Source: Naegleria gruberi (lineage: Eukaryota). From it: a stretch of DNA of 64,000 nucleotides. The DNA lies in the NCBI GenBank assembly GCA_000004985.1, contig GG738923.1; one strand, given 5' to 3'. Shown piece by piece: positions 1-55,100 of the stretch. Numbering within the stretch: position 1 is the first letter of the stretch; every line of letters begins with the position of its first letter. The position numbers were made by a program, and so were the translations under genes. The notes beneath the pieces are model-generated. The model was given only the letters and a program-made list of their open reading frames with translations, was not told the DNA's origin and did no database searches.

Positions 1-148
1 ATTTCCCATTTTTGGACTGTTAAGTAAGAATACTGAATGGGCATCAGATATTTTGAGTAGTTTCATCATTTCATAGTCCATGATTTCTCCACACAAAACA
101 TTAATATTATTTTTAAAGCTGGATTTTCTCAAACTCTCTTTTAGCAAG

Positions 149-1534
149 TCACAGAATTCTCTCTTCTTGAAGACCACTTGTTTTTTTGTAAATTCCACCA
201 ATTGAAATAGAATAATACTTACATATAATCTTGGTTACACTCTTATTCTTGTATTGGAAACATTCCTTAATGAAATCGACAACTTCATCCACTCTACAAA
301 CTCCCGTGACAATAGCATGATTTCTAAGCTTTGGATTTTTAGCTTGAAATATACTTCTTTCACTTGTCAAAATATCATAAATTCCAGAAATTTGAATTGG
401 AATGGTAGTGATACCAATCAAGAAGAAAATTACGACGGCAAATCTTGCTGGAACAGTTGTTGGTGACTGCACAAAATAAACAAATCAATACAATGTTCAA
501 ATACTTACAATATCACCATAACCAATTGTAGTCAAGGTGATGGCAATAAAATATAATGCATCATGGAAGTAAATCTTTCTGTTTCCGACTGTATTCTCCA
601 ACCACTGAAATATTCCTGAAAAGAGAATCAACAAACAAGCAATCAATAATCCTAATTCCAAAACTTTTCCCACAACTGTATCTCCTCTATTACCAATTTT
701 ACGAATGAGAGGAATCAATCTCAATAAACGAAGAACTCTAAATAATCCAATAATTGAGAACAATTTACCTTCATCGACATCGAGAGGTGAAAAAACAATA
801 ATCACAATAATAAAAGTCGGCAACACTGTAATGTAATCTAATAAGGATAATGGTTGGATAAAGTATTTGAATCTGATATTTCATTTTCCATCAATCAGAC
901 AACTCAAAGTGAATCTACTTACTTGTTCTTTGCAAAGAATAGTCCCACAAAGAATAAACCAATAAACAAGGCAGATAAAACTAAATCCAAAATCATTAAT
1001 GGTTGAAACACTTGATCAACATCTAATTGAATATAACTTGCAACGATATAATATACAACAGTCAATAAACAGAATACTGTCTGCATGCCTTCAGAGTTGA
1101 ACCTTGCTTCTTCATTGAATTCTTCCCATGACATATCGAATACATCTAGAAAATCCACTTTCTGAGAAATATTAGAAATCAACTATTCTAATATTACTTA
1201 CATCTTCCAATAATCTCTCTTTCAATGCGTCATCCATATTCTTCAAGAAACCAGCATTAGACTGATGATGATCCACATTAATAGTGTCACTTCTCTCCCT
1301 CGTTTTCTCAGCAAAAGTGACACCTTTGGAATGTTTATGAACATCATCCAATTCTACTTCAACTGCATCCACAGCCACCTCCATTTCATTATCATTCCTT
1401 ATTGTCATCTTGTTGGGTGAACTAGAATCATGTTGTTGTTGTATATGATGATTATTCATAGCACTCGACATTGTCTCCTCATCCAGCGACGAATTACTTG
1501 TAGTACTTCCATTATTTGGCTCCATTGGCAGCAA
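149..1534 (-). CDS. Voltage-gated K+ channel (Shaker/Kv-like), multi-exon
   Basis: The selectivity filter TTIGYGD lies in ORF 497..826. The S4 voltage sensor RVLRLLRLIPLIRK is upstream of the pore. S1-S3-like hydrophobic segments are in ORF 919..1182 and S6 is in ORF 149..472. The exons are separated by short introns, e.g. revcomp of 473-496 is GTAAGT...TGCAG. Confidence 0.8.
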
Positions 1535-2175
1535 CAGTGTTGTTGTTTGTTTTTTTCTTCTTGGTTTTCATGATCGCTCAATGATGATGATTGATAACAA
1601 ATTGGCACAAAATAGTTGTTCGTCCTTCCTAGTTGAGTTTTTTGAGGTTTTATCAGTGGGTTTCATTTTTTTATGAGGATGTAGAAAGAGCGGGAAAATT
1701 TGTTTGTTGCTTATTGGGGAGGATTAGTTGACCTATTAGAAGAATGTTCTGAAATGATGGTAATGGGATTGAGTTTTTTCATTGCACAACAAATTAATAG
1801 TATGAAGTTCACCCGTTTTGTGCTGCACAGCTTATCATTGGCTTTCTGAAAAATGTCAAATGATGTTAAGTCCACACCAGTATGCGATACTGGGGTCCGA
1901 GCCATACCAAATCATACCACTAGCTTGCTGTGCGTGGAATTACAATGCATCTATTGTAGTGGAATATTGTCGAAAAGTTGAAAATTTGTTTGAAAATGAA
2001 AAATGATTGAACAATTTTTTGTAAACCACTACAGAAATACCCAATTAATAGGCATTCGTAATAAAAATCTAGTATTTGTCATTGATTTTTACATGACACA
2101 ATAGTGTCAACGGAAGGGAATTATTAACTCCGAATTTTAAACATCCCTCCGATAAAGAAAAAAACTGTAAAAAAA

Positions 2176-3030
2176 ATGCATCAACACGGAAAGCTCAGAC
2201 GGGTGGTTATTTTGTTCACCTTCACTCTCATCATGATGTTGGTCATGGGACAAGAAACAGCCAAGACCAAACTCTTCAAGAATATGATTTCCCGAACTCA
2301 AAATAATCAAAATTATAAAGGAAGTACTAAAATCGGAAGTGTTCAAGATGGAGTTTGGACCAATGTTTTCCAATTATTTGGATTCCGTTCAGCAAATAAT
2401 CAAACAGATACTGATAATAATCCAAAATTTATTTCATTATTCTATGATGGAATTCATCAGAGAATGAGAATGGATGGAGCTGGTTTGGGAGGCCCTGCAG
2501 CTCAACTCTCTTCCACATCAGTTTTGTTTGAAATTTTGAGATATTATATGAATGTTGTGAGTGTTGATTTTTGTATCTTTGAACATTTGCATCCTAATTC
2601 TACTGCTTATGGAGCTAGAGTTTTCCCATTCAGTGGAAAGGGTACTGTGGCTGAAGGAGGATTCACTGTTGCCAAATATTCTGGAGCTAAATTGATTCAA
2701 AGTAATGCTATTCTTGAACCATCCAATTTGATTAATGGAATGCAAAAGAGAGTTTGTAATGTCTATAATTTGGATGGAAAGTCTGATCTTGCTATTGGTC
2801 TTGGATTTTACTTGTTCAATTATCAAGGACCTAGCTATGTTGACATGACTTATTATGAAGATGCCAAGACAGGACAACCAGTAAGATTTGAAATGAAAGA
2901 TTTGGGAGGTTTTAAGGGAATTACCTCTTGGGATGTATTGAATTTCCAATTCTTTAGTGATAAGGATGATTCTGCTAATGTATTTTCCAAAGATTTATTC
3001 TACTGGAATGCCAAACCAACTTGTCATTAA
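2176..3030 (+). CDS. Hypothetical secreted protein (N-terminal signal peptide), 284 aa
   Basis: Single long ORF. It has a hydrophobic N-terminal signal-like segment VVILFTFTLIMMLVMG. No family was recognised. Confidence 0.45.
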   Translation: MHQHGKLRRVVILFTFTLIMMLVMGQETAKTKLFKNMISRTQNNQNYKGSTKIGSVQDGVWTNVFQLFGFRSANNQTDTDNNPKFISLFYDGIHQRMRMDGAGLGGPAAQLSSTSVLFEILRYYMNVVSVDFCIFEHLHPNSTAYGARVFPFSGKGTVAEGGFTVAKYSGAKLIQSNAILEPSNLINGMQKRVCNVYNLDGKSDLAIGLGFYLFNYQGPSYVDMTYYEDAKTGQPVRFEMKDLGGFKGITSWDVLNFQFFSDKDDSANVFSKDLFYWNAKPTCH

Positions 3031-3267
3031 TAAAATATAACCTGAATTATTTCAGATATCTTACTCTTTTATTTAAGGACTACTTTCTGCTATTACACAT
3101 AATTGAAATGTTGCTCTACTAGAAGAGCTTTAGGATATTCAAGTGTAAAATTTTACTTGTATGGGGGTTTGTTTTTCATCAATTATCCAACTTGATTATC
3201 CGAAAGTTTGAATTTTCTTTAAATAGCTGAAGAATAGTAGAGATCCTCAACAATAACAACAAAAAGA

Positions 3268-4214
3268 ATGCAAGCCTTGGTTATTGAAGATTACTGTATC
3301 CAACCAAATTTTAAACTAGTTTCGGATTTTGAAAAACCATCCAAGTTGAAAGAAAATCAAGTTTTGGTCAAGTTGAAAGCAGCTTCGGTCAACCCAGTCG
3401 ATTACAAAATGAGAAACGGAGCCACAAGGAAAGCAACTCCAGTCAAATTTCCAACGACGCTATTGGTAAAATATTAGATCAAGAGGGTGAACATTCGTTT
3501 AACAATCAACCTTTGACTCCTCCATTCGAAACTTCCAAAAAGAAAGAGTTGAAAATTCTCATATTAGGTGCTTCTGGAGGAACTGGTTTGAGTGCTTGTT
3601 TGATAGCTAAACAATTCCTTTCCCTATATTTCCAAACAAAGGTTTATGCTGTTTGTTCTGAGAGAAATATTGACATTGTTACAAAAATGGGAGCAGATGT
3701 TGTCATTGACTATACAAAAACATCATCCAAACCTAGAATAGATGGTGAATCTGAAAATCTGAAGAGTATTTGTCAAACCATTAAGGAAGACCATGGAGAT
3801 TCTTATGTGGATATTGTATTGGATTGTGTTGGTGGAACTGAAATGTATTATCGTGATGTTTGCAATAATTTTGAGTGTAAGAAAGCAAGAGATGGTGTTG
3901 CATTCACAACCATTTCACCAAATGTTCCATTCGAACCAAATATGGGACTTTCTTCTTTGATGAAAATTGGATATTTTGTAGTTTCTAATAAGATTAGGTC
4001 ATTATCGAGTGCTTATCCATCCTTCCACTTTGTTTTCATGGATAAGAACGTAAAAGATATGAATTTACTGATGAATCATATTGTAATTTCGAATCAAGTT
4101 TACAATCAACTTCCACTGATGGAATTTGAATTTTCTGCTCAAGGATTAAACGATGCACATAAACAAATGGAATCTCAAAGAACAGTTGGTAAAATCGTTA
4201 TCAAAATTCAATAA
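3268..4214 (+). CDS. Zinc-type/MDR alcohol dehydrogenase or quinone oxidoreductase-like protein (2 exons, intron approx 3469-3512)
   Basis: The N-terminal GroES-like segment is MQALVIEDYCIQP...VLVKLKAASVNPVDYKMRNG. The Rossmann motif ILILGASGGTGLSACLIAKQ comes after a short intron. Confidence 0.7.
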
Positions 4215-4481: not shown

Positions 4482-6649
4482 ATGGAAGCAACAAGTGCAC
4501 AATTAAATAATCCTTTTAGTGTTTTTGTTTCATCAAATAATGAAGTTTTTATTGCTGACTATAGCAATCAAAGCATTAGAAAAGTATTACAAAATGGAAA
4601 TATTGTAACAATAGCTGGAAATGGAGATAAAGGATTTAGTGGTGATAATTGTCTAGCAACAAGTGCACAATTAAATAATCCTATTGGTGTTTTTGTTTCA
4701 TCAATAATGAAGTTTATATTTCTGACTATTGTAATCATGTAATTAGAAAGATTTTACAAAATGGAACTATTGTAACAATTGCTGGAAATGGAAAACCTGG
4801 ATTCGGTGGTGATAATGGCCTAGCAACAAATGCACAGTTGAATTACCCTAGAAATGTATATGTTTCATCAAATAATGAAGTTTATATTGCTGACTTTTGT
4901 AATCAAAGAATTAGAAAAGTATTACAAAATGGAAATATTATAACAATAGCTGGAAATGGAACTAAAGGATTTAGTGGTGATAATGGTCCTGCAACAAATG
5001 CACAATTAAATGGTCCTGCAGGCGTTTTTGTTTCAAATAATGAAGTCTATATTGCTGACTATAGTAATCATGTAATTAGAAAGATTTCACAAAATGGAAC
5101 TATTGTAACTATAGCTGGAAATGGAAAACCTGGATTCAGTGGTGATAATGGACTTGCAACAAATGCACAATTATATAATCCTTCAGGCACTTTTGTTTCA
5201 TCGAACAATGAAGTTTATATTTCTGATTGTTTTAATCATGTAATTAGAAAGATTTTACAAAATGGAACTATTGTAACAATTGCTGGAAATGGGAAAGGAG
5301 GATTCAGTGGTGATAATGGCCTTGCAACAAATGCACAATTATATAGTCCTTTAGGTGTTTTTGTTTCATCAAATAATGAAGTTTATATATCTGACTGTTT
5401 TAATCATAGAATTAGAAAGGTATTACATAATGGAAATATTGTAACAATAGCTGGAAATGGAACACCTGGATTCAGTGGAGATTCTCCATTTGATATTTCA
5501 CTCTATCCTCATTTCGGAAATAGTAGCTCTTTAACTAGAAGAATAGAATTTCATAGTTTGAAAAAATATTCAAGAGATCAATTATTTGGATTGGAAATTT
5601 ATGGATTCATGCCACTAATTGAAAGAATATCAATTCAATTCAGTCAAATTCTGAAAAATGAAAAGATAATTTGGTCAATGAATGCTTCACAACGTGCAAT
5701 TATTCAAAAACTAATTAATTCTCTCATATATGATAATAATCAATTGAATTTTACAAAGAATGAACTATTAGATGTATTATTTATTTTAGGATTATTTAAA
5801 AATGGCGAATTTATTGAGCTTAAAAGATCATTGACAAGTGATTTTATTAATTCCATTACCTTGAAAGAATTTCCTGCTGAATGGGAAAAAATTGAATCGC
5901 TGATCATGACATGCAAAGATTTTGGAAATGAAAATTACATTCTTGAATGCTTGAACAATTTCTGTATTGAATTTGTTGCTGTCAAAATGAAGACCACAGA
6001 GGGAAGTGCTGTTTTGTCTTCCCTTCCAATAGTTTTGCGAAATGCTACTGCTTTTTTCCCAAAATTGGTACTTGGTCAACCAACCCCAATCAACATTGAA
6101 GAAAAAATTGAAGTTAATCCACAAACATTAGAATCATTATTTAACGATAAGAAAACAAGTGATATTCAAATCAAAATGGGAGAAGACAAGTATTTATATT
6201 GTCACAAAACTGTTTTGAGCACCACTAGTACCTTCTTTGCTGCCCTATTTGAAAGTGGATCATCCTTTAGTGATTTTAATAATGGAATTTTCACACCAGA
6301 TGAATCAGAAGATTTGGAATTATTGGAAATTATCATCAAATATTGTTATGGAATTTCATTCGACAATGAAAAAATTTCTGGATTGTTAGACATGGCAATG
6401 AAACATGAAATTAAATATTTAGTCGATTATTATTGTATTAATTTCACGCTCTCCATTCAAAATTACTTTTCCATTGTATCAACATGTGAACAGTATTTGG
6501 ATTTACCTGTATTTGAAGGATTTTTCAAAGAAATTATTAGATTTGGAGTTACCAACAAGAAGCAACTCTTTACTGATTTGAGTGTTCTTTCTAAATTACC
6601 TGAAAAAGTTTGGCAGGTGATGTTCTTGAATTGGGCTCAGGATAATTGA
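4482..6649 (+). CDS. NHL-repeat beta-propeller protein with C-terminal BTB/POZ domain (frameshift near 4700-4745)
   Basis: There are at least 8 tandem NHL-type repeats (NNEVYIADxxNHxIRKIxxNGTIxTIAGNGxxGFSGDNGxATNAQL). A BTB domain follows (DIQIKMGEDKYLYCHKTVLSTTSTFFAALFESG...IIKYCYG). ORF 4482..4742 and the frame continuing into 4838..6649 are the same repeat series in different frames, so one gene with an indel or a pseudogene. Confidence 0.7.
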
Positions 6650-7005
6650 GCTAATAACTTTAATGTTTATTTTTGTTCCTCTTTTTATAAATTGTGAACT
6701 ATGAGAATTTCAAATTGTAAACACTGGACGATTCGAATCCTGAATATTATTGTTTACAACACTTGCTGAATTGAGCAAAAAGTTATTTGATTTTTCAAGT
6801 TGAAGATTATGAAGTTTTCAATGAATGATGAATTTATTAGAAAGGAATTTATTTGTCATAAAGATAAACGACCTATCCTTTCCAGCTCACAAAAATCGTC
6901 AAAAGTCAACCCAATTTTCAACTCAAAAAAAAACCAGCACAACCAAACTGCAGCAAAATCTGTTGGACATATTTCTAATTACCCAAAAGCTGTAATTGAT
7001 AAAAG

Positions 7006-7587
7006 ATGAATCCACATCAACAAACACAAAATACTGAACAAAGTGAATCAGTAAATTACTATTACAATTCGAACAGTGATGCAAATACCACAAGTAATTC
7101 CATTGCTAGTAAGACAAATCTCTTTATGTATGGTGGAGGTACATTGCTATTACTCCTTTCATTGGCATTGTTTGGAATTGGTGCAGTTCTGTATGGAGTT
7201 GTAAATTCAATTTCTGTTTCGTATGTCCATCAAGGATGTTGTAATGTTACTGTTTCTAGTGGTTGCTCTAGTTATGATGATTGTAGCTATGGTGTTTCTT
7301 TTCCAATACTGGGAAGTGCAAAACTTCAACAAGATCCTAAAAAAGGATTTGGATTAACTTGTTCTGCTGCAGAAAACCAAATTATGACAACCACCTTAGT
7401 CAAGAAATACTCTAGCTCCAACACCTTGCCAACAACAACCACAAATATTGATTGTTACACTGATAAGAATGAAAAATTTGTATCCCTTGAACCGTACAGT
7501 GAATTGTATACATTGTACATAAGTGGTGGAATTATTTGTTTAGCCGCACCAATTCTATTTTTTGTAATTAAGGTTGGCTTTATGTAA
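7006..7587 (+). CDS. Hypothetical Cys-rich membrane protein (two predicted TM helices); may include upstream ORF 6800..7009
   Basis: The ORF has an N-proximal TM segment (LLLLLSLALFGIGAVLYGVV) and a C-terminal TM segment (IICLAAPILFFVIKVGF). Confidence 0.35.
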   Translation: MNPHQQTQNTEQSESVNYYYNSNSDANTTSNSIASKTNLFMYGGGTLLLLLSLALFGIGAVLYGVVNSISVSYVHQGCCNVTVSSGCSSYDDCSYGVSFPILGSAKLQQDPKKGFGLTCSAAENQIMTTTLVKKYSSSNTLPTTTTNIDCYTDKNEKFVSLEPYSELYTLYISGGIICLAAPILFFVIKVGFM

Positions 7588-8057
7588 AGTGGTAAATGAA
7601 TTTTTCACTTCAACACTTTTCAATCATCCACAATTTTCTGATTTTCAAATTGTTTGTTGTGTGTCATAATTATCGCACGATGAGCTGTTCCAATTTTATT
7701 CCTTTCCATAAAAGAAAACCATAAAACAGTAAAGACGGAAAAATCAAAATCTTCAGGGTTTCAACGAAATAATTGGCATGGTACTTCTACAATAATACTA
7801 ATAAAAGTTTATTAATGTTTCAAGATGATTGACGATACTTGATGATTTATTTGAAGAAACTGCAGTTTACAAAATTGTAAAAAGCTTTTATACTGGTAGT
7901 TTGGAATATTCTCTAGACGATGAAGCCCTCTCACTCTTGATTTTCTTCACAATAATACATGATTCAAGTCTCTATCTTCACATTTAAAACCTGAAATTCA
8001 AATATTTCATCTGATAATTGTTTTAAACTTTTTGGACAATGATATCCTGGAACACCT

Positions 8058-8097
8058 GTTCAAGTTGAGTTTGTGTGTAATCTTCACAGTAACGGAA
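8058..8097 (+). repeat. Conserved 40-nt element, copy 2 (gttcaagttgagtttgtgtgtaatcttcacagtaacggaa)
   Basis: It differs from copy 1 at 4226-4265 by one base. A weaker TG-rich relative lies at 7647-7683. Confidence 0.8.
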
Positions 8098-8145
8098 CGG
8101 TAGCTTTCAATATTACTATTAGAATTAAGGTAAACAGGCCTTACC

Positions 8146-9540
8146 TTAAAGTTTAGAAATTCTATCAGCATAAACCCCTAAATAATTCATTCTTATCAGG
8201 AAGAAATCATCTGAATAGACTTCTGAATATCCAACTTCCCGTACCAATTCCATCTTGAATTCAAAGTCATTCTTCAGCAAGTCTTGAATATTTGCAAATT
8301 CTAGTGCCTTGTCAGTTTGTTTCAGAGCTTCCAATACTATTTTCTTATCAACTTTCAACCTATCTGATGCATACTTGAGAGAAGAGCCATTCTGTTTTAC
8401 AGCCACCATTACCAATTCCTTATCATTCCTCACTTTAAAGGAACAGAATTTTACCATACTGCCATTCTTTTTGAGAGCTTCCAAAATAATTTCATTGTCT
8501 TGCTGAAGGGCTACAGATGCATATTTAAATGCCCATGGATTTTGTTTAACTGCCTCTAGTACAATCTCTTTGTCATTCTTCAATCTGTCAGAAGCAAACA
8601 TTAAGTAATGTCCTTCCTTTTTGACAGCTTGTAGAATTGTGAATCGATCATCCTTTTGTTCATCAGTGACTGAAGATAGAGAGATATCCATCATTAGTTC
8701 CATAAGTTCAATATCATTCTCGTTCATCTCGTCAAAAAATGATACTCTGAATTGATTGTCACTTGCCAAAGTATTGAAATTATTGAAGGTGATGAATATT
8801 TGGGAATGAAGAATTGTCGTTTTTGGTTGATCCCATATAACTATTGGTTGTATTGCTAAAGCTAAATCAATCAATTCACGATCGTGTCTTAGATCAAATG
8901 ATGCATATTCAAGAGATGAGGGTTTTTGTTTCACAGCCTCAGAAACAACCTCCTTGTCATTTCTCAATTTGAATGATGCAAATTGGAGTGCTATTCCATT
9001 TTGTTTGACAGATTCCAAAACTACCTCCCTGTCATTTTGCATTAAATTTGATAAATATCTGAGAACATAACCATCTTGCCGAACTGCATCCAACACGATT
9101 GACTTGTCATTTCTCAGCTCTTCATTTGTAAATGTAACAGCTCTTCCATAATATTTGACAGCTCTCTTAATGAAATCTCTATTGTTTTTCAATTCTTGTG
9201 AAACATGCGTCAGAATCCAACCATTTTCTTTAACACAATCCAATACAAATGCTTCATTTCTTTTAAGTTCTTCATCAATGTGATGAAAAACTTCGCCATT
9301 TCTCTTCACTGCTCGTAAAATAAACTCCGTATCCTTCTTAAACTCTGGGTTAGCCCATTCGAAAGCAGTTTCGTTTTGTGCCAATGCCTCCAAAACTACG
9401 TGAGGATCAGATTTTAGATTATCAGATGCAAACCTGAGGAAATTTCCTTTTCTAGAAACACATTCCAAAACCACTTGTTTATTGTTTGCAAATTCTATGG
9501 GAATGAATTGGGTGAAGTTTCGTGTAGGAGCTACCTGCAT
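8146..9540 (-). CDS. DUF4116-like tandem-repeat protein, 464 aa
   Basis: There are at least 10 tandem repeats of about 36 aa. Each carries the signature VLEAVKQNGxALKYASxxLKNDKEIVL. Confidence 0.7.
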   Translation of the reverse strand: MQVAPTRNFTQFIPIEFANNKQVVLECVSRKGNFLRFASDNLKSDPHVVLEALAQNETAFEWANPEFKKDTEFILRAVKRNGEVFHHIDEELKRNEAFVLDCVKENGWILTHVSQELKNNRDFIKRAVKYYGRAVTFTNEELRNDKSIVLDAVRQDGYVLRYLSNLMQNDREVVLESVKQNGIALQFASFKLRNDKEVVSEAVKQKPSSLEYASFDLRHDRELIDLALAIQPIVIWDQPKTTILHSQIFITFNNFNTLASDNQFRVSFFDEMNENDIELMELMMDISLSSVTDEQKDDRFTILQAVKKEGHYLMFASDRLKNDKEIVLEAVKQNPWAFKYASVALQQDNEIILEALKKNGSMVKFCSFKVRNDKELVMVAVKQNGSSLKYASDRLKVDKKIVLEALKQTDKALEFANIQDLLKNDFEFKMELVREVGYSEVYSDDFFLIRMNYLGVYADRISKL

Positions 9541-9757
9541 TTTTTTTGATTGAATCTCAACAAAGACAGAACTGTTGAGAACTCAGTTTGATTGGTTACA
9601 TAGATGTTACACAATGTTGCAATAATTACTTTATTTGACTGGTTTTCAATGTTAGAAAGTTTAGTTTGCTTTATTCTCGAATTTTGTCAGAGAGAGAAAG
9701 GATTCGATTTTTGACATTCTTGAGAAAGTTTCAGCATTTATTCATGTTTCATTTCAA

Positions 9758-12215
9758 TCAACAATTATTAGGAGTGTTTGTTGCAGCAGTACCACTCTTT
9801 CTAATGGAAAGTAGTGCTCTCACAACCAACCATACAGGTGGAATTGACACAACTACAGCGACTGGAATTGCCATAAACGCAAAGAAGGCATAATAATTAT
9901 TGTTACAATTATCACATATTAAGGCAGTTTTGCAATCATTACCAGTGTAAGAAGATGAACATGATGTACAATTAGCTCCTGTCCAATATCCATCGTTGGC
10001 ATTTGACTTGCATTCACATTTATCAAGTGAAACACATGTACCATGTCCTCCACAAACAGTTGTGCCATCTGGAGTACCAAAACATTTCAATTGATCCATT
10101 GTAATTGTACCATTATTGTTTGTATTTGTCAAATTCGTATTGGTTGTATTATTTTGAGAAATAGTGGAATTTAAAGTTGTTCCATTATTAACTAGAGTAG
10201 TATTATCAATTATGGTAGTGTTGTTTGAAACAACTATTGTAGTATTATTATTAACAGTAGTATTATTTGTAGCAGTACTATTATTTACAATAGTAGTATT
10301 ATCAGTAGTAGTGTTTGAAACAATTGTTGTAGTATTATTGTTGTCAATAATGGTAGAATTGTTAGTAGTAGTGGTATTGGAATAGATTGAACTATTAACA
10401 GTTGAAGAATTTGTTACTGAAATAATGATTTCAGAATTGTTGTAAAATAGGGAACAATTCAAACCACTCCAATTATTCTCACAAGTGCAATTATTGAAAG
10501 TAGAGCAAACTCCGTGGCCATTACAAACCATTGGATCGGTACTATTTGAAAGTACATCAAAACACATTGTGGTGGAACAATTTGAACCGAACCATCCACT
10601 GCTACATGAACAATTGTTCATTGATGAACATTGGCCATTACCAGAACACACCAAAGTCTCATTAAATGTAATACCATAACAGGTAATGACTGGTTCAGGT
10701 GCTGAATTTAAGGCTGTCTCACAAAATGTTCCATTATAATCAGAGGTACAATTACAAATGTTTGGTGCTTGACATACACCATGACCATTACAAGCTCTTG
10801 GATCACTTGCATTGACACCATTACATGCAACAGTCTCACATACTGAGCCAATATAACCTGATTCACAGGAGCAAACATCTGTAGAATTACATATTCCATG
10901 TCCACTGCAAACTAATGGATCACTAGCTAATATTCCATTGCATAGACGAGTTGTGGAAATTAGTCGTAAGTAATTATTTCCAGTATCTGAAATGAGCACC
11001 TCTCCAGTGGCAGAACGAACCGAAACAAAATAAGGACCATTAAGCTTGGCACTCGTTGCTTCCATGTTATCACCTCTATCACTTGTACCACCTGCAATCG
11101 TTATAATTGTGCCATTTGACAATATTTTACGAATTCGATGATTATTGGTATCAGCAAGATAAACTTCACCATTCGAATCAATTGCCATTCCATAAACAAC
11201 TGAAAATTTGGCATTCAAAGCATCACCATTATCCCCGCTATATCCACTCACTCCATTTCCAGCAATGCTTACAATAGTTCCATTTGATAACACCTTTCTA
11301 ATCCTATAATTAAGAGTATCACCAAAATACAGTTCAGATTCAGAACTCATAGCCATACTGTAAACGTTCCTTATTTTGGCATTTGTAGCATCAATTCCAT
11401 CTCCATTATAACCTGAAGAACCAGTTCCTACAGCTGTAACAATCGTTCCATTTGTTAAAATCTTTCTAATCCTATAATTATTACTATCAGCAATATAGAG
11501 CTCACCACTTTTAGAATCAACAACAATGGATTGTTTAATTTTGCACTTCTTGCATCGATACCATCTCCATTATAACCTGAGACACCAGTTCCTGCAATGA
11601 TAACCATGGTTCCATTATTAAGAATTTTACGAATGACATGGTTATACGAATCTGCCACAAGTAATTGACCATCGAGATCAGTTGCAATCGAATTAGGTAA
11701 TGCTAATTGAGTATCTGTTGCCAGCCGACCACCTCCATTATTACCATAATTTCCTGTACCTGCAATAGAGTCAATCATTCCATTCTTTGAAATTCTACTA
11801 ATTCTATTACCTTGTGTTTCGGCAACATAAATATCTCCATTCGAATTAAAAAGAGTTCCTCTAGGATTTGTCAATGGAGTGTTAGTTGCCGTAATACCTG
11901 CACAATAAGATGCACTTCCATCACCAGCTAGTGGTGTGATAGTTCCATTGGTTAATACTCTACGAATACTGTGTCTTCCTGAATCTGAAATAATCATTTC
12001 TCCATTAGGGGCAATCAAAATACCTGATGGAATATTCAAGTTGGCACTTGTTGCATCTTGATAATCACCATTGTAACCACTTATGCCAGTTCCAGCAATT
12101 GTAATAATTGTACCATTATTGAAAACGTTACGAATCTATCAGCAATATAAATTTCACCCAATGAATTAATGGCAGTGAATATTGGACCAAACAATGCAGC
12201 TGCTCGACCATCATG
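9758..12215 (-). CDS. Type I membrane protein: NHL-repeat propeller + EGF/tenascin-like Cys repeats + Thr/Asn-rich mucin-like region + TM (two frameshifts; possible pseudogene)
   Basis: The N-terminal part (higher coordinates) holds the NHL repeats. EGF-like CNGHGVC repeats lie at about 10470-10950. NxT-rich low complexity lies at about 10100-10450. A TM helix (AFFAFMAIPVAVVVSIPPVWLVV) is near 9830-9900. The reading frame breaks at about 11548 (1 nt) and about 12137 (13 nt missing relative to paralogous repeats). Confidence 0.65.
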
Positions 12216-12264: not shown

Positions 12265-13236
<972 letters not shown>

Positions 13237-13544
13237 TCAATGATGGGTACTTGTATTAATAGGTTATTGGACGTTAAAAATAGAATTAATGGCGGTTTGC
13301 TGTTACAACGTGAGTTCATCCTCGCTTCAGCACGTTTAGATTGAAGAGATTCAACTCCACATCCATATTCGCTTTCAATCCATTAATACACTATTGCCAT
13401 TTTACACAACCAATCAACTTTTAACATCATCAACCTCATTACTTCAATCGATTGGATGAGAGAGATATGGTAAGGTAATAATCCATTTTCCTTCCAATGC
13501 TGTTGTATTAGATATGATACCAATTAGTTACTAACTGAACAAGT

Positions 13545-47677: not shown

Positions 47678-47727
47678 NNNNNNNNNNNNNNNNNNNNNNN
47701 NNNNNNNNNNNNNNNNNNNNNNNNNNN
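47678..47727. other. Assembly gap (50 N)
   Basis: It is a run of N. Confidence 1.
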
Positions 47728-49121: not shown

Positions 49122-52100
49122 NNNNNNNNNNNNNNNNNNNNNNNNNNNNNNNNNNNNNNNNNNNNNNNNNNNNNNNNNNNNNNNNNNNNNNNNNNNNNNN
49201 NNNNNNNNNNNNNNNNNNNNNNNNNNNNNNNNNNNNNNNNNNNNNNNNNNNNNNNNNNNNNNNNNNNNNNNNNNNNNNNNNNNNNNNNNNNNNNNNNNNN
49301 NNNNNNNNNNNNNNNNNNNNNNNNNNNNNNNNNNNNNNNNNNNNNNNNNNNNNNNNNNNNNNNNNNNNNNNNNNNNNNNNNNNNNNNNNNNNNNNNNNNN
49401 NNNNNNNNNNNNNNNNNNNNNNNNNNNNNNNNNNNNNNNNNNNNNNNNNNNNNNNNNNNNNNNNNNNNNNNNNNNNNNNNNNNNNNNNNNNNNNNNNNNN
49501 NNNNNNNNNNNNNNNNNNNNNNNNNNNNNNNNNNNNNNNNNNNNNNNNNNNNNNNNNNNNNNNNNNNNNNNNNNNNNNNNNNNNNNNNNNNNNNNNNNNN
49601 NNNNNNNNNNNNNNNNNNNNNNNNNNNNNNNNNNNNNNNNNNNNNNNNNNNNNNNNNNNNNNNNNNNNNNNNNNNNNNNNNNNNNNNNNNNNNNNNNNNN
49701 NNNNNNNNNNNNNNNNNNNNNNNNNNNNNNNNNNNNNNNNNNNNNNNNNNNNNNNNNNNNNNNNNNNNNNNNNNNNNNNNNNNNNNNNNNNNNNNNNNNN
49801 NNNNNNNNNNNNNNNNNNNNNNNNNNNNNNNNNNNNNNNNNNNNNNNNNNNNNNNNNNNNNNNNNNNNNNNNNNNNNNNNNNNNNNNNNNNNNNNNNNNN
49901 NNNNNNNNNNNNNNNNNNNNNNNNNNNNNNNNNNNNNNNNNNNNNNNNNNNNNNNNNNNNNNNNNNNNNNNNNNNNNNNNNNNNNNNNNNNNNNNNNNNN
50001 NNNNNNNNNNNNNNNNNNNNNNNNNNNNNNNNNNNNNNNNNNNNNNNNNNNNNNNNNNNNNNNNNNNNNNNNNNNNNNNNNNNNNNNNNNNNNNNNNNNN
50101 NNNNNNNNNNNNNNNNNNNNNNNNNNNNNNNNNNNNNNNNNNNNNNNNNNNNNNNNNNNNNNNNNNNNNNNNNNNNNNNNNNNNNNNNNNNNNNNNNNNN
50201 NNNNNNNNNNNNNNNNNNNNNNNNNNNNNNNNNNNNNNNNNNNNNNNNNNNNNNNNNNNNNNNNNNNNNNNNNNNNNNNNNNNNNNNNNNNNNNNNNNNN
50301 NNNNNNNNNNNNNNNNNNNNNNNNNNNNNNNNNNNNNNNNNNNNNNNNNNNNNNNNNNNNNNNNNNNNNNNNNNNNNNNNNNNNNNNNNNNNNNNNNNNN
50401 NNNNNNNNNNNNNNNNNNNNNNNNNNNNNNNNNNNNNNNNNNNNNNNNNNNNNNNNNNNNNNNNNNNNNNNNNNNNNNNNNNNNNNNNNNNNNNNNNNNN
50501 NNNNNNNNNNNNNNNNNNNNNNNNNNNNNNNNNNNNNNNNNNNNNNNNNNNNNNNNNNNNNNNNNNNNNNNNNNNNNNNNNNNNNNNNNNNNNNNNNNNN
50601 NNNNNNNNNNNNNNNNNNNNNNNNNNNNNNNNNNNNNNNNNNNNNNNNNNNNNNNNNNNNNNNNNNNNNNNNNNNNNNNNNNNNNNNNNNNNNNNNNNNN
50701 NNNNNNNNNNNNNNNNNNNNNNNNNNNNNNNNNNNNNNNNNNNNNNNNNNNNNNNNNNNNNNNNNNNNNNNNNNNNNNNNNNNNNNNNNNNNNNNNNNNN
50801 NNNNNNNNNNNNNNNNNNNNNNNNNNNNNNNNNNNNNNNNNNNNNNNNNNNNNNNNNNNNNNNNNNNNNNNNNNNNNNNNNNNNNNNNNNNNNNNNNNNN
50901 NNNNNNNNNNNNNNNNNNNNNNNNNNNNNNNNNNNNNNNNNNNNNNNNNNNNNNNNNNNNNNNNNNNNNNNNNNNNNNNNNNNNNNNNNNNNNNNNNNNN
51001 NNNNNNNNNNNNNNNNNNNNNNNNNNNNNNNNNNNNNNNNNNNNNNNNNNNNNNNNNNNNNNNNNNNNNNNNNNNNNNNNNNNNNNNNNNNNNNNNNNNN
51101 NNNNNNNNNNNNNNNNNNNNNNNNNNNNNNNNNNNNNNNNNNNNNNNNNNNNNNNNNNNNNNNNNNNNNNNNNNNNNNNNNNNNNNNNNNNNNNNNNNNN
51201 NNNNNNNNNNNNNNNNNNNNNNNNNNNNNNNNNNNNNNNNNNNNNNNNNNNNNNNNNNNNNNNNNNNNNNNNNNNNNNNNNNNNNNNNNNNNNNNNNNNN
51301 NNNNNNNNNNNNNNNNNNNNNNNNNNNNNNNNNNNNNNNNNNNNNNNNNNNNNNNNNNNNNNNNNNNNNNNNNNNNNNNNNNNNNNNNNNNNNNNNNNNN
51401 NNNNNNNNNNNNNNNNNNNNNNNNNNNNNNNNNNNNNNNNNNNNNNNNNNNNNNNNNNNNNNNNNNNNNNNNNNNNNNNNNNNNNNNNNNNNNNNNNNNN
51501 NNNNNNNNNNNNNNNNNNNNNNNNNNNNNNNNNNNNNNNNNNNNNNNNNNNNNNNNNNNNNNNNNNNNNNNNNNNNNNNNNNNNNNNNNNNNNNNNNNNN
51601 NNNNNNNNNNNNNNNNNNNNNNNNNNNNNNNNNNNNNNNNNNNNNNNNNNNNNNNNNNNNNNNNNNNNNNNNNNNNNNNNNNNNNNNNNNNNNNNNNNNN
51701 NNNNNNNNNNNNNNNNNNNNNNNNNNNNNNNNNNNNNNNNNNNNNNNNNNNNNNNNNNNNNNNNNNNNNNNNNNNNNNNNNNNNNNNNNNNNNNNNNNNN
51801 NNNNNNNNNNNNNNNNNNNNNNNNNNNNNNNNNNNNNNNNNNNNNNNNNNNNNNNNNNNNNNNNNNNNNNNNNNNNNNNNNNNNNNNNNNNNNNNNNNNN
51901 NNNNNNNNNNNNNNNNNNNNNNNNNNNNNNNNNNNNNNNNNNNNNNNNNNNNNNNNNNNNNNNNNNNNNNNNNNNNNNNNNNNNNNNNNNNNNNNNNNNN
52001 NNNNNNNNNNNNNNNNNNNNNNNNNNNNNNNNNNNNNNNNNNNNNNNNNNNNNNNNNNNNNNNNNNNNNNNNNNNNNNNNNNNNNNNNNNNNNNNNNNNN

Positions 52101-55100
52101 NNNNNNNNNNNNNNNNNNNNNNNNNNNNNNNNNNNNNNNNNNNNNNNNNNNNNNNNNNNNNNNNNNNNNNNNNNNNNNNNNNNNNNNNNNNNNNNNNNNN
52201 NNNNNNNNNNNNNNNNNNNNNNNNNNNNNNNNNNNNNNNNNNNNNNNNNNNNNNNNNNNNNNNNNNNNNNNNNNNNNNNNNNNNNNNNNNNNNNNNNNNN
52301 NNNNNNNNNNNNNNNNNNNNNNNNNNNNNNNNNNNNNNNNNNNNNNNNNNNNNNNNNNNNNNNNNNNNNNNNNNNNNNNNNNNNNNNNNNNNNNNNNNNN
52401 NNNNNNNNNNNNNNNNNNNNNNNNNNNNNNNNNNNNNNNNNNNNNNNNNNNNNNNNNNNNNNNNNNNNNNNNNNNNNNNNNNNNNNNNNNNNNNNNNNNN
52501 NNNNNNNNNNNNNNNNNNNNNNNNNNNNNNNNNNNNNNNNNNNNNNNNNNNNNNNNNNNNNNNNNNNNNNNNNNNNNNNNNNNNNNNNNNNNNNNNNNNN
52601 NNNNNNNNNNNNNNNNNNNNNNNNNNNNNNNNNNNNNNNNNNNNNNNNNNNNNNNNNNNNNNNNNNNNNNNNNNNNNNNNNNNNNNNNNNNNNNNNNNNN
52701 NNNNNNNNNNNNNNNNNNNNNNNNNNNNNNNNNNNNNNNNNNNNNNNNNNNNNNNNNNNNNNNNNNNNNNNNNNNNNNNNNNNNNNNNNNNNNNNNNNNN
52801 NNNNNNNNNNNNNNNNNNNNNNNNNNNNNNNNNNNNNNNNNNNNNNNNNNNNNNNNNNNNNNNNNNNNNNNNNNNNNNNNNNNNNNNNNNNNNNNNNNNN
52901 NNNNNNNNNNNNNNNNNNNNNNNNNNNNNNNNNNNNNNNNNNNNNNNNNNNNNNNNNNNNNNNNNNNNNNNNNNNNNNNNNNNNNNNNNNNNNNNNNNNN
53001 NNNNNNNNNNNNNNNNNNNNNNNNNNNNNNNNNNNNNNNNNNNNNNNNNNNNNNNNNNNNNNNNNNNNNNNNNNNNNNNNNNNNNNNNNNNNNNNNNNNN
53101 NNNNNNNNNNNNNNNNNNNNNNNNNNNNNNNNNNNNNNNNNNNNNNNNNNNNNNNNNNNNNNNNNNNNNNNNNNNNNNNNNNNNNNNNNNNNNNNNNNNN
53201 NNNNNNNNNNNNNNNNNNNNNNNNNNNNNNNNNNNNNNNNNNNNNNNNNNNNNNNNNNNNNNNNNNNNNNNNNNNNNNNNNNNNNNNNNNNNNNNNNNNN
53301 NNNNNNNNNNNNNNNNNNNNNNNNNNNNNNNNNNNNNNNNNNNNNNNNNNNNNNNNNNNNNNNNNNNNNNNNNNNNNNNNNNNNNNNNNNNNNNNNNNNN
53401 NNNNNNNNNNNNNNNNNNNNNNNNNNNNNNNNNNNNNNNNNNNNNNNNNNNNNNNNNNNNNNNNNNNNNNNNNNNNNNNNNNNNNNNNNNNNNNNNNNNN
53501 NNNNNNNNNNNNNNNNNNNNNNNNNNNNNNNNNNNNNNNNNNNNNNNNNNNNNNNNNNNNNNNNNNNNNNNNNNNNNNNNNNNNNNNNNNNNNNNNNNNN
53601 NNNNNNNNNNNNNNNNNNNNNNNNNNNNNNNNNNNNNNNNNNNNNNNNNNNNNNNNNNNNNNNNNNNNNNNNNNNNNNNNNNNNNNNNNNNNNNNNNNNN
53701 NNNNNNNNNNNNNNNNNNNNNNNNNNNNNNNNNNNNNNNNNNNNNNNNNNNNNNNNNNNNNNNNNNNNNNNNNNNNNNNNNNNNNNNNNNNNNNNNNNNN
53801 NNNNNNNNNNNNNNNNNNNNNNNNNNNNNNNNNNNNNNNNNNNNNNNNNNNNNNNNNNNNNNNNNNNNNNNNNNNNNNNNNNNNNNNNNNNNNNNNNNNN
53901 NNNNNNNNNNNNNNNNNNNNNNNNNNNNNNNNNNNNNNNNNNNNNNNNNNNNNNNNNNNNNNNNNNNNNNNNNNNNNNNNNNNNNNNNNNNNNNNNNNNN
54001 NNNNNNNNNNNNNNNNNNNNNNNNNNNNNNNNNNNNNNNNNNNNNNNNNNNNNNNNNNNNNNNNNNNNNNNNNNNNNNNNNNNNNNNNNNNNNNNNNNNN
54101 NNNNNNNNNNNNNNNNNNNNNNNNNNNNNNNNNNNNNNNNNNNNNNNNNNNNNNNNNNNNNNNNNNNNNNNNNNNNNNNNNNNNNNNNNNNNNNNNNNNN
54201 NNNNNNNNNNNNNNNNNNNNNNNNNNNNNNNNNNNNNNNNNNNNNNNNNNNNNNNNNNNNNNNNNNNNNNNNNNNNNNNNNNNNNNNNNNNNNNNNNNNN
54301 NNNNNNNNNNNNNNNNNNNNNNNNNNNNNNNNNNNNNNNNNNNNNNNNNNNNNNNNNNNNNNNNNNNNNNNNNNNNNNNNNNNNNNNNNNNNNNNNNNNN
54401 NNNNNNNNNNNNNNNNNNNNNNNNNNNNNNNNNNNNNNNNNNNNNNNNNNNNNNNNNNNNNNNNNNNNNNNNNNNNNNNNNNNNNNNNNNNNNNNNNNNN
54501 NNNNNNNNNNNNNNNNNNNNNNNNNNNNNNNNNNNNNNNNNNNNNNNNNNNNNNNNNNNNNNNNNNNNNNNNNNNNNNNNNNNNNNNNNNNNNNNNNNNN
54601 NNNNNNNNNNNNNNNNNNNNNNNNNNNNNNNNNNNNNNNNNNNNNNNNNNNNNNNNNNNNNNNNNNNNNNNNNNNNNNNNNNNNNNNNNNNNNNNNNNNN
54701 NNNNNNNNNNNNNNNNNNNNNNNNNNNNNNNNNNNNNNNNNNNNNNNNNNNNNNNNNNNNNNNNNNNNNNNNNNNNNNNNNNNNNNNNNNNNNNNNNNNN
54801 NNNNNNNNNNNNNNNNNNNNNNNNNNNNNNNNNNNNNNNNNNNNNNNNNNNNNNNNNNNNNNNNNNNNNNNNNNNNNNNNNNNNNNNNNNNNNNNNNNNN
54901 NNNNNNNNNNNNNNNNNNNNNNNNNNNNNNNNNNNNNNNNNNNNNNNNNNNNNNNNNNNNNNNNNNNNNNNNNNNNNNNNNNNNNNNNNNNNNNNNNNNN
55001 NNNNNNNNNNNNNNNNNNNNNNNNNNNNNNNNNNNNNNNNNNNNNNNNNNNNNNNNNNNNNNNNNNNNNNNNNNNNNNNNNNNNNNNNNNNNNNNNNNNN

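What the first reader, a model, noticed from the sequence alone, without database searches (positions are those of the whole stretch)
4482..12215. Cluster of NHL-repeat genes with unusual architectures (NHL-BTB; NHL-EGF-mucin-TM) and three frameshifts
Two large NHL beta-propeller genes lie within 8 kb, and their repeat units are highly similar to each other. The + strand gene places an N-terminal NHL propeller ahead of a C-terminal BTB/POZ domain. This is the reverse of the usual TRIM-NHL order, and BTB usually pairs with Kelch rather than NHL. The - strand gene is a type I membrane protein. Its NHL propeller, tenascin/teneurin-like EGF Cys repeats and a Thr/Asn-rich N-glycosylation stalk are all extracellular. 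Three frame disruptions fall inside the repeats: about 4700-4745 (1 nt), about 11548 (1 nt) and about 12137 (13 nt missing relative to sister repeats). These may be repeat-collapse errors or ongoing pseudogenisation of a recently expanded family.
Basis: partly seen in the sequence, partly recalled or inferred. Interest (0 to 1): 0.5.

Follow-up and report, generated by a model that had tools for sequence, protein, structure and literature searches.

The report
Two damaged NHL-repeat genes in Naegleria
The region holds two unrelated NHL-propeller genes of the amoeba Naegleria gruberi, one NHL-BTB and one NHL-EGF-membrane; their domain layouts are real but are features of whole gene families, and both copies here look like ordinary young pseudogenes in a stretch with several damaged genes.

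Summary
The window is the Naegleria gruberi NEG-M reference (Sanger draft).

**+ gene (4482-6649, NAEGRDRAFT_75358).** It has six 165-168-nt NHL units, a helical domain, a BTB domain and BACK-like helices. Unit 2 is 167 nt because one A is missing at 4703-4704. The reference annotation hides this with a 35-nt pseudo-intron (4712-4746). A second copy about 98-99% identical, on other scaffolds, is disrupted in the same blade, so the lesion is probably real.

**NHL-BTB family.** This layout is shared by at least 13 N. gruberi loci and by N. lovaniensis genes. The best fold matches are SPOP, KBTBD2 and A55, which are Cul3 adaptors. SPOP also has its substrate domain ahead of the BTB domain.

**- gene (9758-12215).**
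- It is an unannotated relic of a family built as signal peptide, NHL, EGF, stalk, transmembrane segment.
- It has no 5' end or signal peptide, because a polyubiquitin stop codon lies about 45 nt upstream.
- It carries a 13-nt deletion (12137/12136) and a -1 shift (about 11528).

**Neighbours.** A dehydrogenase gene has a 286-nt deletion, and polyubiquitin unit 2 has -1 and +1 indels.

**Similarity.** Repeat similarity is high only within the + gene (78-89% nt). Between the two genes it is 54-68%.

**Verdict.** Ordinary gene decay. The undescribed NHL-BTB family is mildly interesting.

The parts
4482..6649 (+). NHL-BTB gene NAEGRDRAFT_75358 (EFC36971). It would encode 722 aa if one A were restored. 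As it stands, the ATG ORF stops at 4740-4742 after 86 aa.
   Evidence: The start MEATSAQL matches the MSSLATSAQL start of intact paralogues.
4488..5491 (+). Six NHL repeat units forming the blades of a six-bladed propeller, 165-168 nt each and 78-89% nt identical to one another.
   Evidence: An AF2 model of intact paralogue P0006 shows 24 strands arranged as 6 x 4, with pLDDT about 85-97.
4703..4704 (+). Frameshift site. The A-run is one base short: 'TCATCAATAATG' where sister units have 'TCATCAAATAATG'. Unit 2 is therefore 167 nt.
   Evidence: Inserting one A gives an open 722-codon frame.
4712..4746 (+). 35-nt GT..AG 'intron' of the reference gene model. It is an annotation device that bridges the frameshift. 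It removes the conserved NNEVYISDYCNHVIR core of blade 2.
   Evidence: The window translation with 4712-4746 removed is identical to P0247/EFC36971. The removed segment is homologous to coding sequence in the sister units. A genuine intron in the related contig L001 is 46 nt.
5600..6070 (+). Family-specific all-helical domain between the propeller and the BTB domain. It has no Pfam match.
   Evidence: AF2 model residues 64-220, pLDDT about 72-95 apart from one 10-residue block at 67. No Pfam hit. Conserved in paralogues.
6128..6430 (+). BTB/POZ domain.
6464..6646 (+). C-terminal helices after the BTB domain, resembling a 3-box/BACK region.
9758..12215 (-). Unannotated relic of an NHL-EGF-stalk-TM surface-protein gene. 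It has eight NHL blades, a 5' truncation and two frame disruptions. Its longest intact ORF is 9758-11356 (532 aa).
   Evidence: No identical protein in the collections.
12136..12137 (-). 13-nt deletion in blade 1. The codons for x-N-(H/Y)-R before IRN are missing.
   Evidence: Alignment A2 against five sister blades shows one clean 13-column gap.
11521..11535 (-). Net -1 frameshift in the loop between AKLNNP and IVVDSKSGELY. The unit is 164 nt where others are 165 or 168.
10454..10942 (-). Teneurin-like EGF repeats, with 24 Cys.
   Evidence: Pfam EGF_Teneurin E=1e-23 and EGF_2 E=1.4e-21, each reported as 5 stretches for the whole 532-aa ORF, so the count may include the membrane-proximal module. 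Cys positions.
10085..10453 (-). Thr/Asn-rich stalk with dense N-x-S/T sequons.
   Evidence: 39 T and 33 N in 140 aa, with 26 sequons.
9905..10084 (-). Cys-rich, EGF-like module next to the membrane.
   Evidence: Cys at aa 425-484. Sequence.
9821..9877 (-). Single C-terminal transmembrane segment, followed by a 20-aa tail.
   Evidence: Best 19-residue Kyte-Doolittle window scores 2.32, FMAIPVAVVVSIPPVWLVV.
12265..13182 (-). Four-unit polyubiquitin gene lying directly upstream of the - gene. Its stop codon is about 45 nt from the first NHL homology. Unit 2 carries a -1 indel (about 12946) and a +1 indel (12820).
   Evidence: Intact 305-aa polyubiquitin with the same protein sequence is annotated in N. 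gruberi under two accessions, EFC43848 and EFC47569.

Best explanation
The window is Naegleria gruberi NEG-M. The interval holds one member of each of two different NHL-repeat gene families, and both copies are decaying.

**(1) + gene, 4482-6649.**
- It belongs to a family known by name only from Naegleria. The layout is a six-bladed NHL propeller, a disordered linker, a helical domain, a BTB domain and BACK/3-box-like helices.
- By analogy with SPOP, which also has its substrate domain first and BTB-3-box last, intact family members most likely dimerise through the BTB domain, dock on Cul3, and use the NHL propeller to present substrates for ubiquitination. This step is inferred.
- This copy has a real 1-nt deletion in blade 2, which ends translation after 86 codons.
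- The reference annotation masks the deletion with a 35-nt pseudo-intron.
- At best the locus could yield an NHL-less C-terminal product starting at Met258 of the downstream ORF.

**(2) - gene, 9758-12215.**
- It is the remnant of a secreted, type I surface protein. Intact relatives run signal peptide, NHL blades, EGF repeats, glycosylated stalk, transmembrane segment.
- It has lost its 5' end and signal peptide, and it has a 13-nt deletion and a -1 shift. It is a pseudogene.

**Shown:** the domain content, the lesions, family membership, and the disruption in the second copy.

**Inferred:** the Cul3 adaptor role, the extracellular topology, and non-functionality.
For: **Organism and locus**
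- Exact matches to EFC36969, EFC36972, EFC36974 and EFC36976, all on a 326,815-bp N. gruberi scaffold.
- NEG-M was Sanger-sequenced and Naegleria is described as a heterozygous diploid (PMC9928731).

**Domains and structure**
- Pfam hits for NHL, BTB and EGF domains.
- AF2 model of paralogue P0006 shows 6 x 4 strands, a helical domain, BTB and C-terminal helices.
- AF2 model of the window's C-terminal part.
- Best fold matches are SPOP, A55-Cul3, KBTBD2, KEAP1 and KLHL11.

**Family**
- Full-length NHL-BTB paralogues P0002, P0004, P0005, P0006, P0008, P0009 and P0020, plus N. lovaniensis P0092 and P0116.
- Further members P0283, P0381, P0284 and P0380.

**+ gene lesion**
- Unit 2 is 167 nt.
- The reference model equals the window translation minus 4712-4746.
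- Second copy P0246 reads 'VFVSSMKKILQ' in the same blade and differs at 4 other residues, so it comes from independent sequence.

**- gene**
- 13-nt gap and a 164-nt unit.
- Intact relatives P0180, P0122, P0141, P0190, P0215 and P0221 all start with a hydrophobic signal sequence.
- The polyubiquitin stop lies about 45 nt upstream.
- No identical annotated protein.

**Neighbourhood decay**
- The dehydrogenase gene lacks 286 nt relative to a 97.5%-identical environmental contig.
Against: - The DNA of the second copy could not be read. Its lesion is inferred from the protein model alone.
- After each lesion the frames stay open for 603 and 532 codons without a stop. That would also fit base-calling errors in intact genes.
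- Polyubiquitin unit 2 has compensating -1 and +1 indels, and all its other differences from its sister units are synonymous. This looks like low-quality consensus and weakens trust in the nearby 1-nt shift at about 11528.
- No read or transcript data were available.
- Cul3 binding was not tested.
Confidence: 0.7

Rival explanations
1. The 1-nt lesions are sequencing or consensus errors in a poorly covered part of the Sanger draft, and the genes are intact in the organism.
For: - Polyubiquitin unit 2 shows a -1 and a +1 indel 126 nt apart, and its other differences from sister units are only synonymous.
- Long open frames persist after both 1-nt shifts.
- The scaffold is a draft and contains a gap.
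Against: - A separate scaffold copy that differs at other residues is disrupted in the same blade of the + gene.
- The 13-nt and 286-nt deletions are not base-calling errors.
- The - gene would still lack a start codon and signal peptide.
- Two intact polyubiquitin entries are annotated in N. gruberi (EFC43848, EFC47569), so a decaying extra copy is plausible.
Confidence: 0.2
2. The + gene is functional as annotated. On this view 4712-4746 is a genuine 35-nt intron, or the shift is bypassed by programmed frameshifting.
For: The segment has GT..AG ends and its removal restores the frame. The reference annotation uses it.
Against: - The 'intron' aligns with coding sequence in the five sister units and encodes the most conserved blade core. 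No paralogue has an intron there.
- It is shorter than the 46-nt intron seen nearby in L001.
- Its removal deletes strands of blade 2.
Confidence: 0.04
3. The lesions are repeat-collapse assembly artefacts.
For: The + gene units are 78-89% identical, which is similar enough to confuse an assembler.
Against: - A collapse removes or fuses whole 165/168-nt units, not 1 or 13 nt.
- The + gene keeps six units, like its intact paralogues.
- The - gene units are only 53-70% identical, too divergent to collapse.
Confidence: 0.03

Closest known systems
SPOP / MATH-BTB Cul3 substrate adaptors
   Same: The order is substrate-binding domain first, then BTB, then 3-box/BACK helices at the C-terminus. SPOP is the best Foldseek match for the BTB region.
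   Different: The substrate domain is a six-bladed NHL propeller rather than MATH. A family-specific helical domain of about 160 aa is inserted before the BTB domain. Sequence identity is only 16-18%.
BTB-BACK-Kelch proteins (KLHL/KBTBD, for example KBTBD2, KEAP1, KLHL11, vaccinia A55)
   Different: The propeller is of the NHL type, not Kelch. It lies N-terminal rather than C-terminal to the BTB domain.
TRIM-NHL proteins
   Same: They carry a six-bladed NHL propeller as the target-binding module of a ubiquitin-ligase-related protein.
   Different: There is no RING, B-box or coiled coil. The protein begins directly with blade 1 and the NHL region is N-terminal. The repeats are the 56-aa type that matches Pfam's Teneurin NHL model, and its closest hits outside Naegleria are bacterial or metagenomic.
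Teneurins
   Same: The - gene matches the Pfam models TEN_NHL and EGF_Teneurin. Both pair extracellular NHL and EGF modules on a single-pass membrane protein.
   Different: The order and topology are opposite. The - gene family has NHL before EGF with a C-terminal transmembrane segment (type I). Teneurins have an N-terminal transmembrane segment with EGF before NHL (type II). No YD shell or toxin domain was detected.
Intact Naegleria paralogues: NHL-BTB (EFC entries P0005, P0006, P0009) and NHL-EGF/stalk-TM (P0180, P0190, P0141)
   Same: They have the same architectures. The NHL-BTB paralogues are 65-69% identical to the + gene. The surface-protein paralogues are 34-41% identical to the - gene.
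   Different: They have intact frames, and the surface proteins have signal peptides. The window copies are frame-disrupted, and the - gene is also truncated at its 5' end.

Membership tests
NHL-repeat beta-propeller (Pfam PF01436 / PF25021) | Repeat matches above the curated threshold | tested here: met
   NHL scores 75.1 bits against a cut-off of 20 in the + ORF, and 50.6 and 31 bits in the - ORFs. TEN_NHL scores 75.7, 43.4 and 40.2 bits.
NHL-repeat beta-propeller (Pfam PF01436 / PF25021) | Six four-stranded blades closing into a propeller | tested here: met
   The AF2 model of intact paralogue P0006 has 24 strands in six groups, with pLDDT about 85-97. The window copy has six units, but blade 2 is frame-broken.
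BTB/POZ domain proteins | BTB domain by sequence and by fold | tested here: met
Cul3 (CRL3) substrate adaptors | 3-box/BACK helices directly after the BTB domain | tested here: met
   Model helices 352-411. Alignments of 165-175 residues to the BTB-BACK regions of A55, KBTBD2 and SPOP. This rests on a model with pLDDT 74.
Cul3 (CRL3) substrate adaptors | Cul3-contacting phi-x-E motif, and physical binding to Cul3 | not tested
   By eye, a conserved F-S-D sits at the expected position (LFxSGSxFSD). No alignment to solved Cul3 interfaces was made, and binding cannot be tested here.
BTB-BACK-Kelch (KLHL/KBTBD) | N-terminal BTB domain followed by C-terminal Kelch repeats | tested here: not met
   No Kelch Pfam match. 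The propeller is NHL and lies N-terminal to the BTB domain.
TRIM-NHL | N-terminal RING, B-box and coiled coil | tested here: not met
   No such Pfam hits. The protein and its paralogues start directly with blade 1.
Teneurin | Type II topology, EGF repeats N-terminal to NHL, YD shell and toxin domain | tested here: not met
   Only the NHL and EGF sub-models match. The order is NHL then EGF then transmembrane segment, with the transmembrane segment at the C-terminus.
Naegleria signal peptide-NHL-EGF/stalk-TM surface proteins | N-terminal signal peptide | tested here: not met
   All six intact relatives have a signal peptide. Here the NHL homology starts about 45 nt after the polyubiquitin stop codon, and no upstream exon was found.
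Pseudogene | Frame disruption relative to intact paralogues, seen in independent sequence | tested here: inconclusive
   + gene: the lesion is seen in the window and inferred in second copy EFC35872 from its protein model only. - gene: the lesions are seen in one assembly only. No reads or transcripts were available.

The most novel reading that the evidence does not exclude
The intact members of the Naegleria NHL-(helical)-BTB family form a class of Cul3 substrate adaptors that, as far as I could find, has not been described. They would recognise substrates with an NHL propeller of the 56-aa type whose closest non-Naegleria hits here are bacterial or metagenomic, placed N-terminally as in SPOP, and they have expanded to more than a dozen copies in one protist lineage. 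The frameshifted copy in this window would then be a by-product of birth-and-death turnover in that family.
Probability: 0.45. Interest if true: 0.4.

Novelty: new variant of a known kind. Interest (0 to 1): 0.22.

Why it matters
**For annotation.** NAEGRDRAFT_75358 in the reference proteome is a frameshift patched with a fake intron. A 2.5-kb NHL-EGF-TM pseudogene and a damaged polyubiquitin copy appear to be unannotated: no identical protein is in the collections searched. At least four genes within 10 kb are damaged. Users of this proteome should know this.

**For biology.** The only wider point is that Naegleria pairs an NHL propeller with a SPOP-like BTB/3-box module in a multi-gene family. 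That would extend the known range of substrate-recognition domains among Cul3 adaptors. The proteins are already in public databases, but three full-text searches found no paper mentioning Naegleria together with NHL repeats or BTB.

Tried and rejected
**Reading the DNA of the second copy or any other N. gruberi sequence.**
- The look-up of encoding contigs does not hold this genome.
- The one related contig recovered, L001 from an ENA metagenome, is 97.5% identical but ends about 240 nt before the + gene.
- A scan of JGI metagenomes with the C-terminal module found no relative.

**Other dead ends.**
- The word-indexed protein search with the C-terminal module returned only 4 hits. The exhaustive HMMER search was used in its place.
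- The odd C-terminal tail of P0246 matches nothing in the window, so the structure of that scaffold remains unknown.
- Literature searches for Naegleria with 'NHL repeat', or with both NHL and BTB, gave no papers. One intron and heterozygosity search was uninformative.

**Ideas rejected.**
- My first guess was a dictyostelid genome, with introns explaining the frame breaks. The breaks lie inside repeat-homologous coding sequence, and the organism is Naegleria.
- A missing 5' exon of the - gene beyond the polyubiquitin gene. I saw no signal-peptide ORF on reading the - strand of 13183-13544.
- Other NHL or BTB copies in the window. There are none.

Full report
**Source of the window**

Only 49,121 bases are real. 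The rest is N padding, and there is a 50-N gap at 47678-47727. Four ORFs are identical to Naegleria gruberi proteins EFC36969, EFC36972, EFC36974 and EFC36976, all on one 326,815-bp scaffold. The window is therefore the NEG-M reference assembly. That strain was Sanger-sequenced, and the genus is described as a heterozygous diploid (PMC9928731).

**The + gene (4482-6649)**

Pfam finds NHL and TEN_NHL repeats, and a BTB domain at residues 431-531 of the 603-aa ORF. The repeat region consists of six units of 168, 167, 168, 165, 168 and 168 nt.

The 167-nt unit reads TCATCAATAATG where its sister units read TCATCAAATAATG. One A is missing at 4703-4704, and translation from the ATG at 4482 stops at 4740. 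Restoring that base gives an uninterrupted 722-codon frame.

The ATG at 4482 is the authentic start. Intact paralogues of 699-733 aa begin MSSLATSAQL at the same repeat position.

The reference model EFC36971 (NAEGRDRAFT_75358, 710 aa) is exactly the window translation with 4712-4746 removed. That 35-nt GT..AG 'intron' is homologous to coding sequence in every sister unit. It removes the conserved NNEVYISDYCNHVIR core of blade 2. It is also shorter than a real 46-nt intron seen in a related contig. I read it as an annotation patch over a frameshift.

**Is the + frameshift real?**

The same 90% protein cluster contains EFC35872 (348 aa, on a 12,976-bp scaffold) and EFC35386 (409 aa, partial, on a 2,086-bp scaffold). 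EFC35872 differs from the window protein at four other residues, so it comes from independent sequence. In blade 2 it reads VFVSSMKKILQ, which means it too needed a bridge at the same place.

A neighbouring gene also has a near-identical twin, differing at three sites, on yet another scaffold. This fits separately assembled haplotypes or a recent segmental duplicate. The lesion is therefore probably real and older than the split between the two copies. I could not read the DNA of the second copy to prove it.

**What the + gene family is**

Full-length relatives with the same NHL-then-BTB layout include P0002, P0004, P0005, P0006, P0008, P0009 and P0020 in N. gruberi, at 46-69% identity. N. lovaniensis has P0092 and P0116.

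An exhaustive HMMER search with the non-NHL C-terminal 389 aa found 100 representatives at E<=1e-3 and 27 at E<=1e-10. Every named one is from N. gruberi or N. lovaniensis, and the rest are environmental contigs. Some representatives carry NHL, one carries ankyrin repeats, and some show no recognisable N-terminal domain.

The AF2 model of intact paralogue P0006 shows these parts:
- 24 strands in six four-stranded blades, with pLDDT about 85-97
- a disordered linker
- an all-helical domain
- a BTB domain
- further helices at the C-terminus

I infer that intact members act as Cul3 substrate adaptors that use an NHL propeller. The order, substrate domain first and BTB last, is that of SPOP. It is unusual relative to BTB-Kelch and TRIM-NHL proteins, but it has a precedent. 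The proteins are not members of KLHL, TRIM-NHL or MATH-BTB, because a defining domain is absent in each case.

**The - gene (9758-12215)**

The conserved I-R-K/R-I/V anchors of the NHL units are spaced 168, 165, 168, 164, 168, 168 and 165 nt apart across both ORF blocks. The two blocks therefore belonged to one gene with eight blades.

The 164-nt unit holds the frame shift. It lies between AKLNNP and IVVDSK, at about 11528. Blade 1 has one clean 13-nt gap relative to five sister blades, at 12137/12136.

Downstream of the blades come these parts:
- teneurin-like EGF repeats (Pfam reports five stretches of EGF_Teneurin, E=1e-23, for the whole ORF)
- a Thr/Asn-rich stalk with 26 N-x-S/T sequons
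- a further Cys-rich module
- one transmembrane segment 20 residues from the C-terminus

Intact relatives in N. gruberi (P0180, P0122, P0141, P0190) and on metagenome contigs (P0215, P0221) all begin with a hydrophobic signal sequence. Most of them end in a transmembrane segment.

This copy has no 5' end. NHL homology begins about 45 nt after the stop codon of a same-strand polyubiquitin gene. No signal-peptide exon lies further upstream. No identical protein exists in the collections for either ORF block. The closest paralogue is only 39% identical. I conclude it is an unannotated, truncated pseudogene.

**Similarity between the two genes**

Units within the + gene are 78-89% identical at the nucleotide level. 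Units within the - gene are 53-70% identical. Between the two genes the figure is 54-68%, against about 49% for shuffled sequence. The two genes are not recent duplicates of each other. The window holds no other NHL or BTB copy.

**The neighbourhood**

The polyubiquitin gene (12265-13182) has four 228-nt units. Unit 2 has a -1 indel at about 12946 and a +1 indel at 12820. All its other differences from the sister units are synonymous. An intact 305-aa polyubiquitin with this protein sequence is annotated in N. gruberi under two accessions, EFC43848 and EFC47569.

The zinc-dehydrogenase gene at 3268-4214 lacks 286 nt relative to a 97.5%-identical environmental Naegleria contig. The missing stretch is a 46-nt intron plus the exon that encodes most of the ADH_N domain.

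At least four genes in 3.2-13.2 kb are therefore damaged. The compensating indels in ubiquitin look like consensus errors. They keep alive the rival view that some of the 1-nt shifts are artefacts. The 13-nt and 286-nt deletions, the 5' truncation and the shared + gene lesion cannot be explained that way.

**Verdict**

- Pseudogenisation is favoured.
- Repeat collapse is rejected, because the lesions are not unit-sized and the + gene keeps its six blades.
- The 'unusual architectures' are family-wide features of Naegleria that are already in public annotation.

Three full-text searches found no paper mentioning Naegleria together with NHL repeats or BTB. I rate the NHL-BTB layout as an undescribed variant of the BTB-adaptor theme. 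The finding as a whole is of low interest.

Noticed in passing
window 12265-13182 (-): This is a four-unit polyubiquitin gene. Unit 2 has a -1 indel (about 12946) and a +1 indel (12820) 126 nt apart, with an in-frame TGA between them. All other differences between the units are synonymous. It is either low-quality consensus or a very young lesion in a redundant copy. Intact 305-aa polyubiquitin is annotated in N. gruberi under two accessions, EFC43848 and EFC47569.
   Followed up: partly
window 3268-4214 (+), break at 3453/3459; L001 5633-5918: The zinc-dehydrogenase gene lacks 286 nt relative to a 97.5%-identical environmental Naegleria contig. The missing stretch is a 46-nt intron plus the exon for ADH_N profile positions 39-103. 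It leaves two ORFs in different frames, so this is another damaged gene beside the NHL genes.
   Followed up: partly
window 4712-4746 (+): The reference model NAEGRDRAFT_75358 uses a 35-nt GT..AG 'intron' that only serves to bridge a frameshift. The deposited 710-aa protein therefore lacks the core of blade 2.
   Followed up: yes
L001 (ENA ERZ929261, contig k127_96018) versus window 1-3955: A metagenome assembly holds a Naegleria strain about 2.5% diverged from NEG-M. ENA-sourced near-identical (same 90% cluster) copies of other N. gruberi NHL-BTB paralogues (P0379, P0288) also exist on short contigs. Their source samples were not checked.
   Followed up: partly
window 8146-9540 (-): A 464-aa ORF is made of 12 DUF4116 repeats (Pfam E=4.9e-148). 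It lies between the two NHL genes. The exact ORF product is not in the protein collections, so the reference model, if there is one, must differ.
   Followed up: no
proteins P0003, P0007, P0040 and others: The 56-aa NHL units of the + gene are 50-59% identical to hits that are mostly unnamed metagenome proteins; the named ones include Spirosoma, Latescibacteria and Bryobacterales. That is about as close as they are to the other NHL gene in the same window. It could reflect a bacterial origin of this propeller type or simply a slowly evolving repeat consensus. No phylogeny was made.
   Followed up: no
proteins P0001 (928 aa) and P0011 (819 aa), on other N. gruberi scaffolds: These models contain the NHL block twice, with a partial C-terminal module in between. 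They look like two adjacent family members fused by the annotation, which suggests tandem arrays of NHL-BTB genes elsewhere in the genome.
   Followed up: no
proteins P0248, P0280 (390-392 aa) and P0291 (535 aa): The helical-BTB-BACK-like module also occurs without NHL repeats in N. gruberi models and with ankyrin repeats in N. lovaniensis. The short models could be further cases where a broken NHL region was left out of the annotation.
   Followed up: no
window 47678-47727 and 49122-64000: There is a 50-N scaffold gap. From 49122 onward the window is N padding, so only 49,121 bases of real sequence are present.
   Followed up: yes
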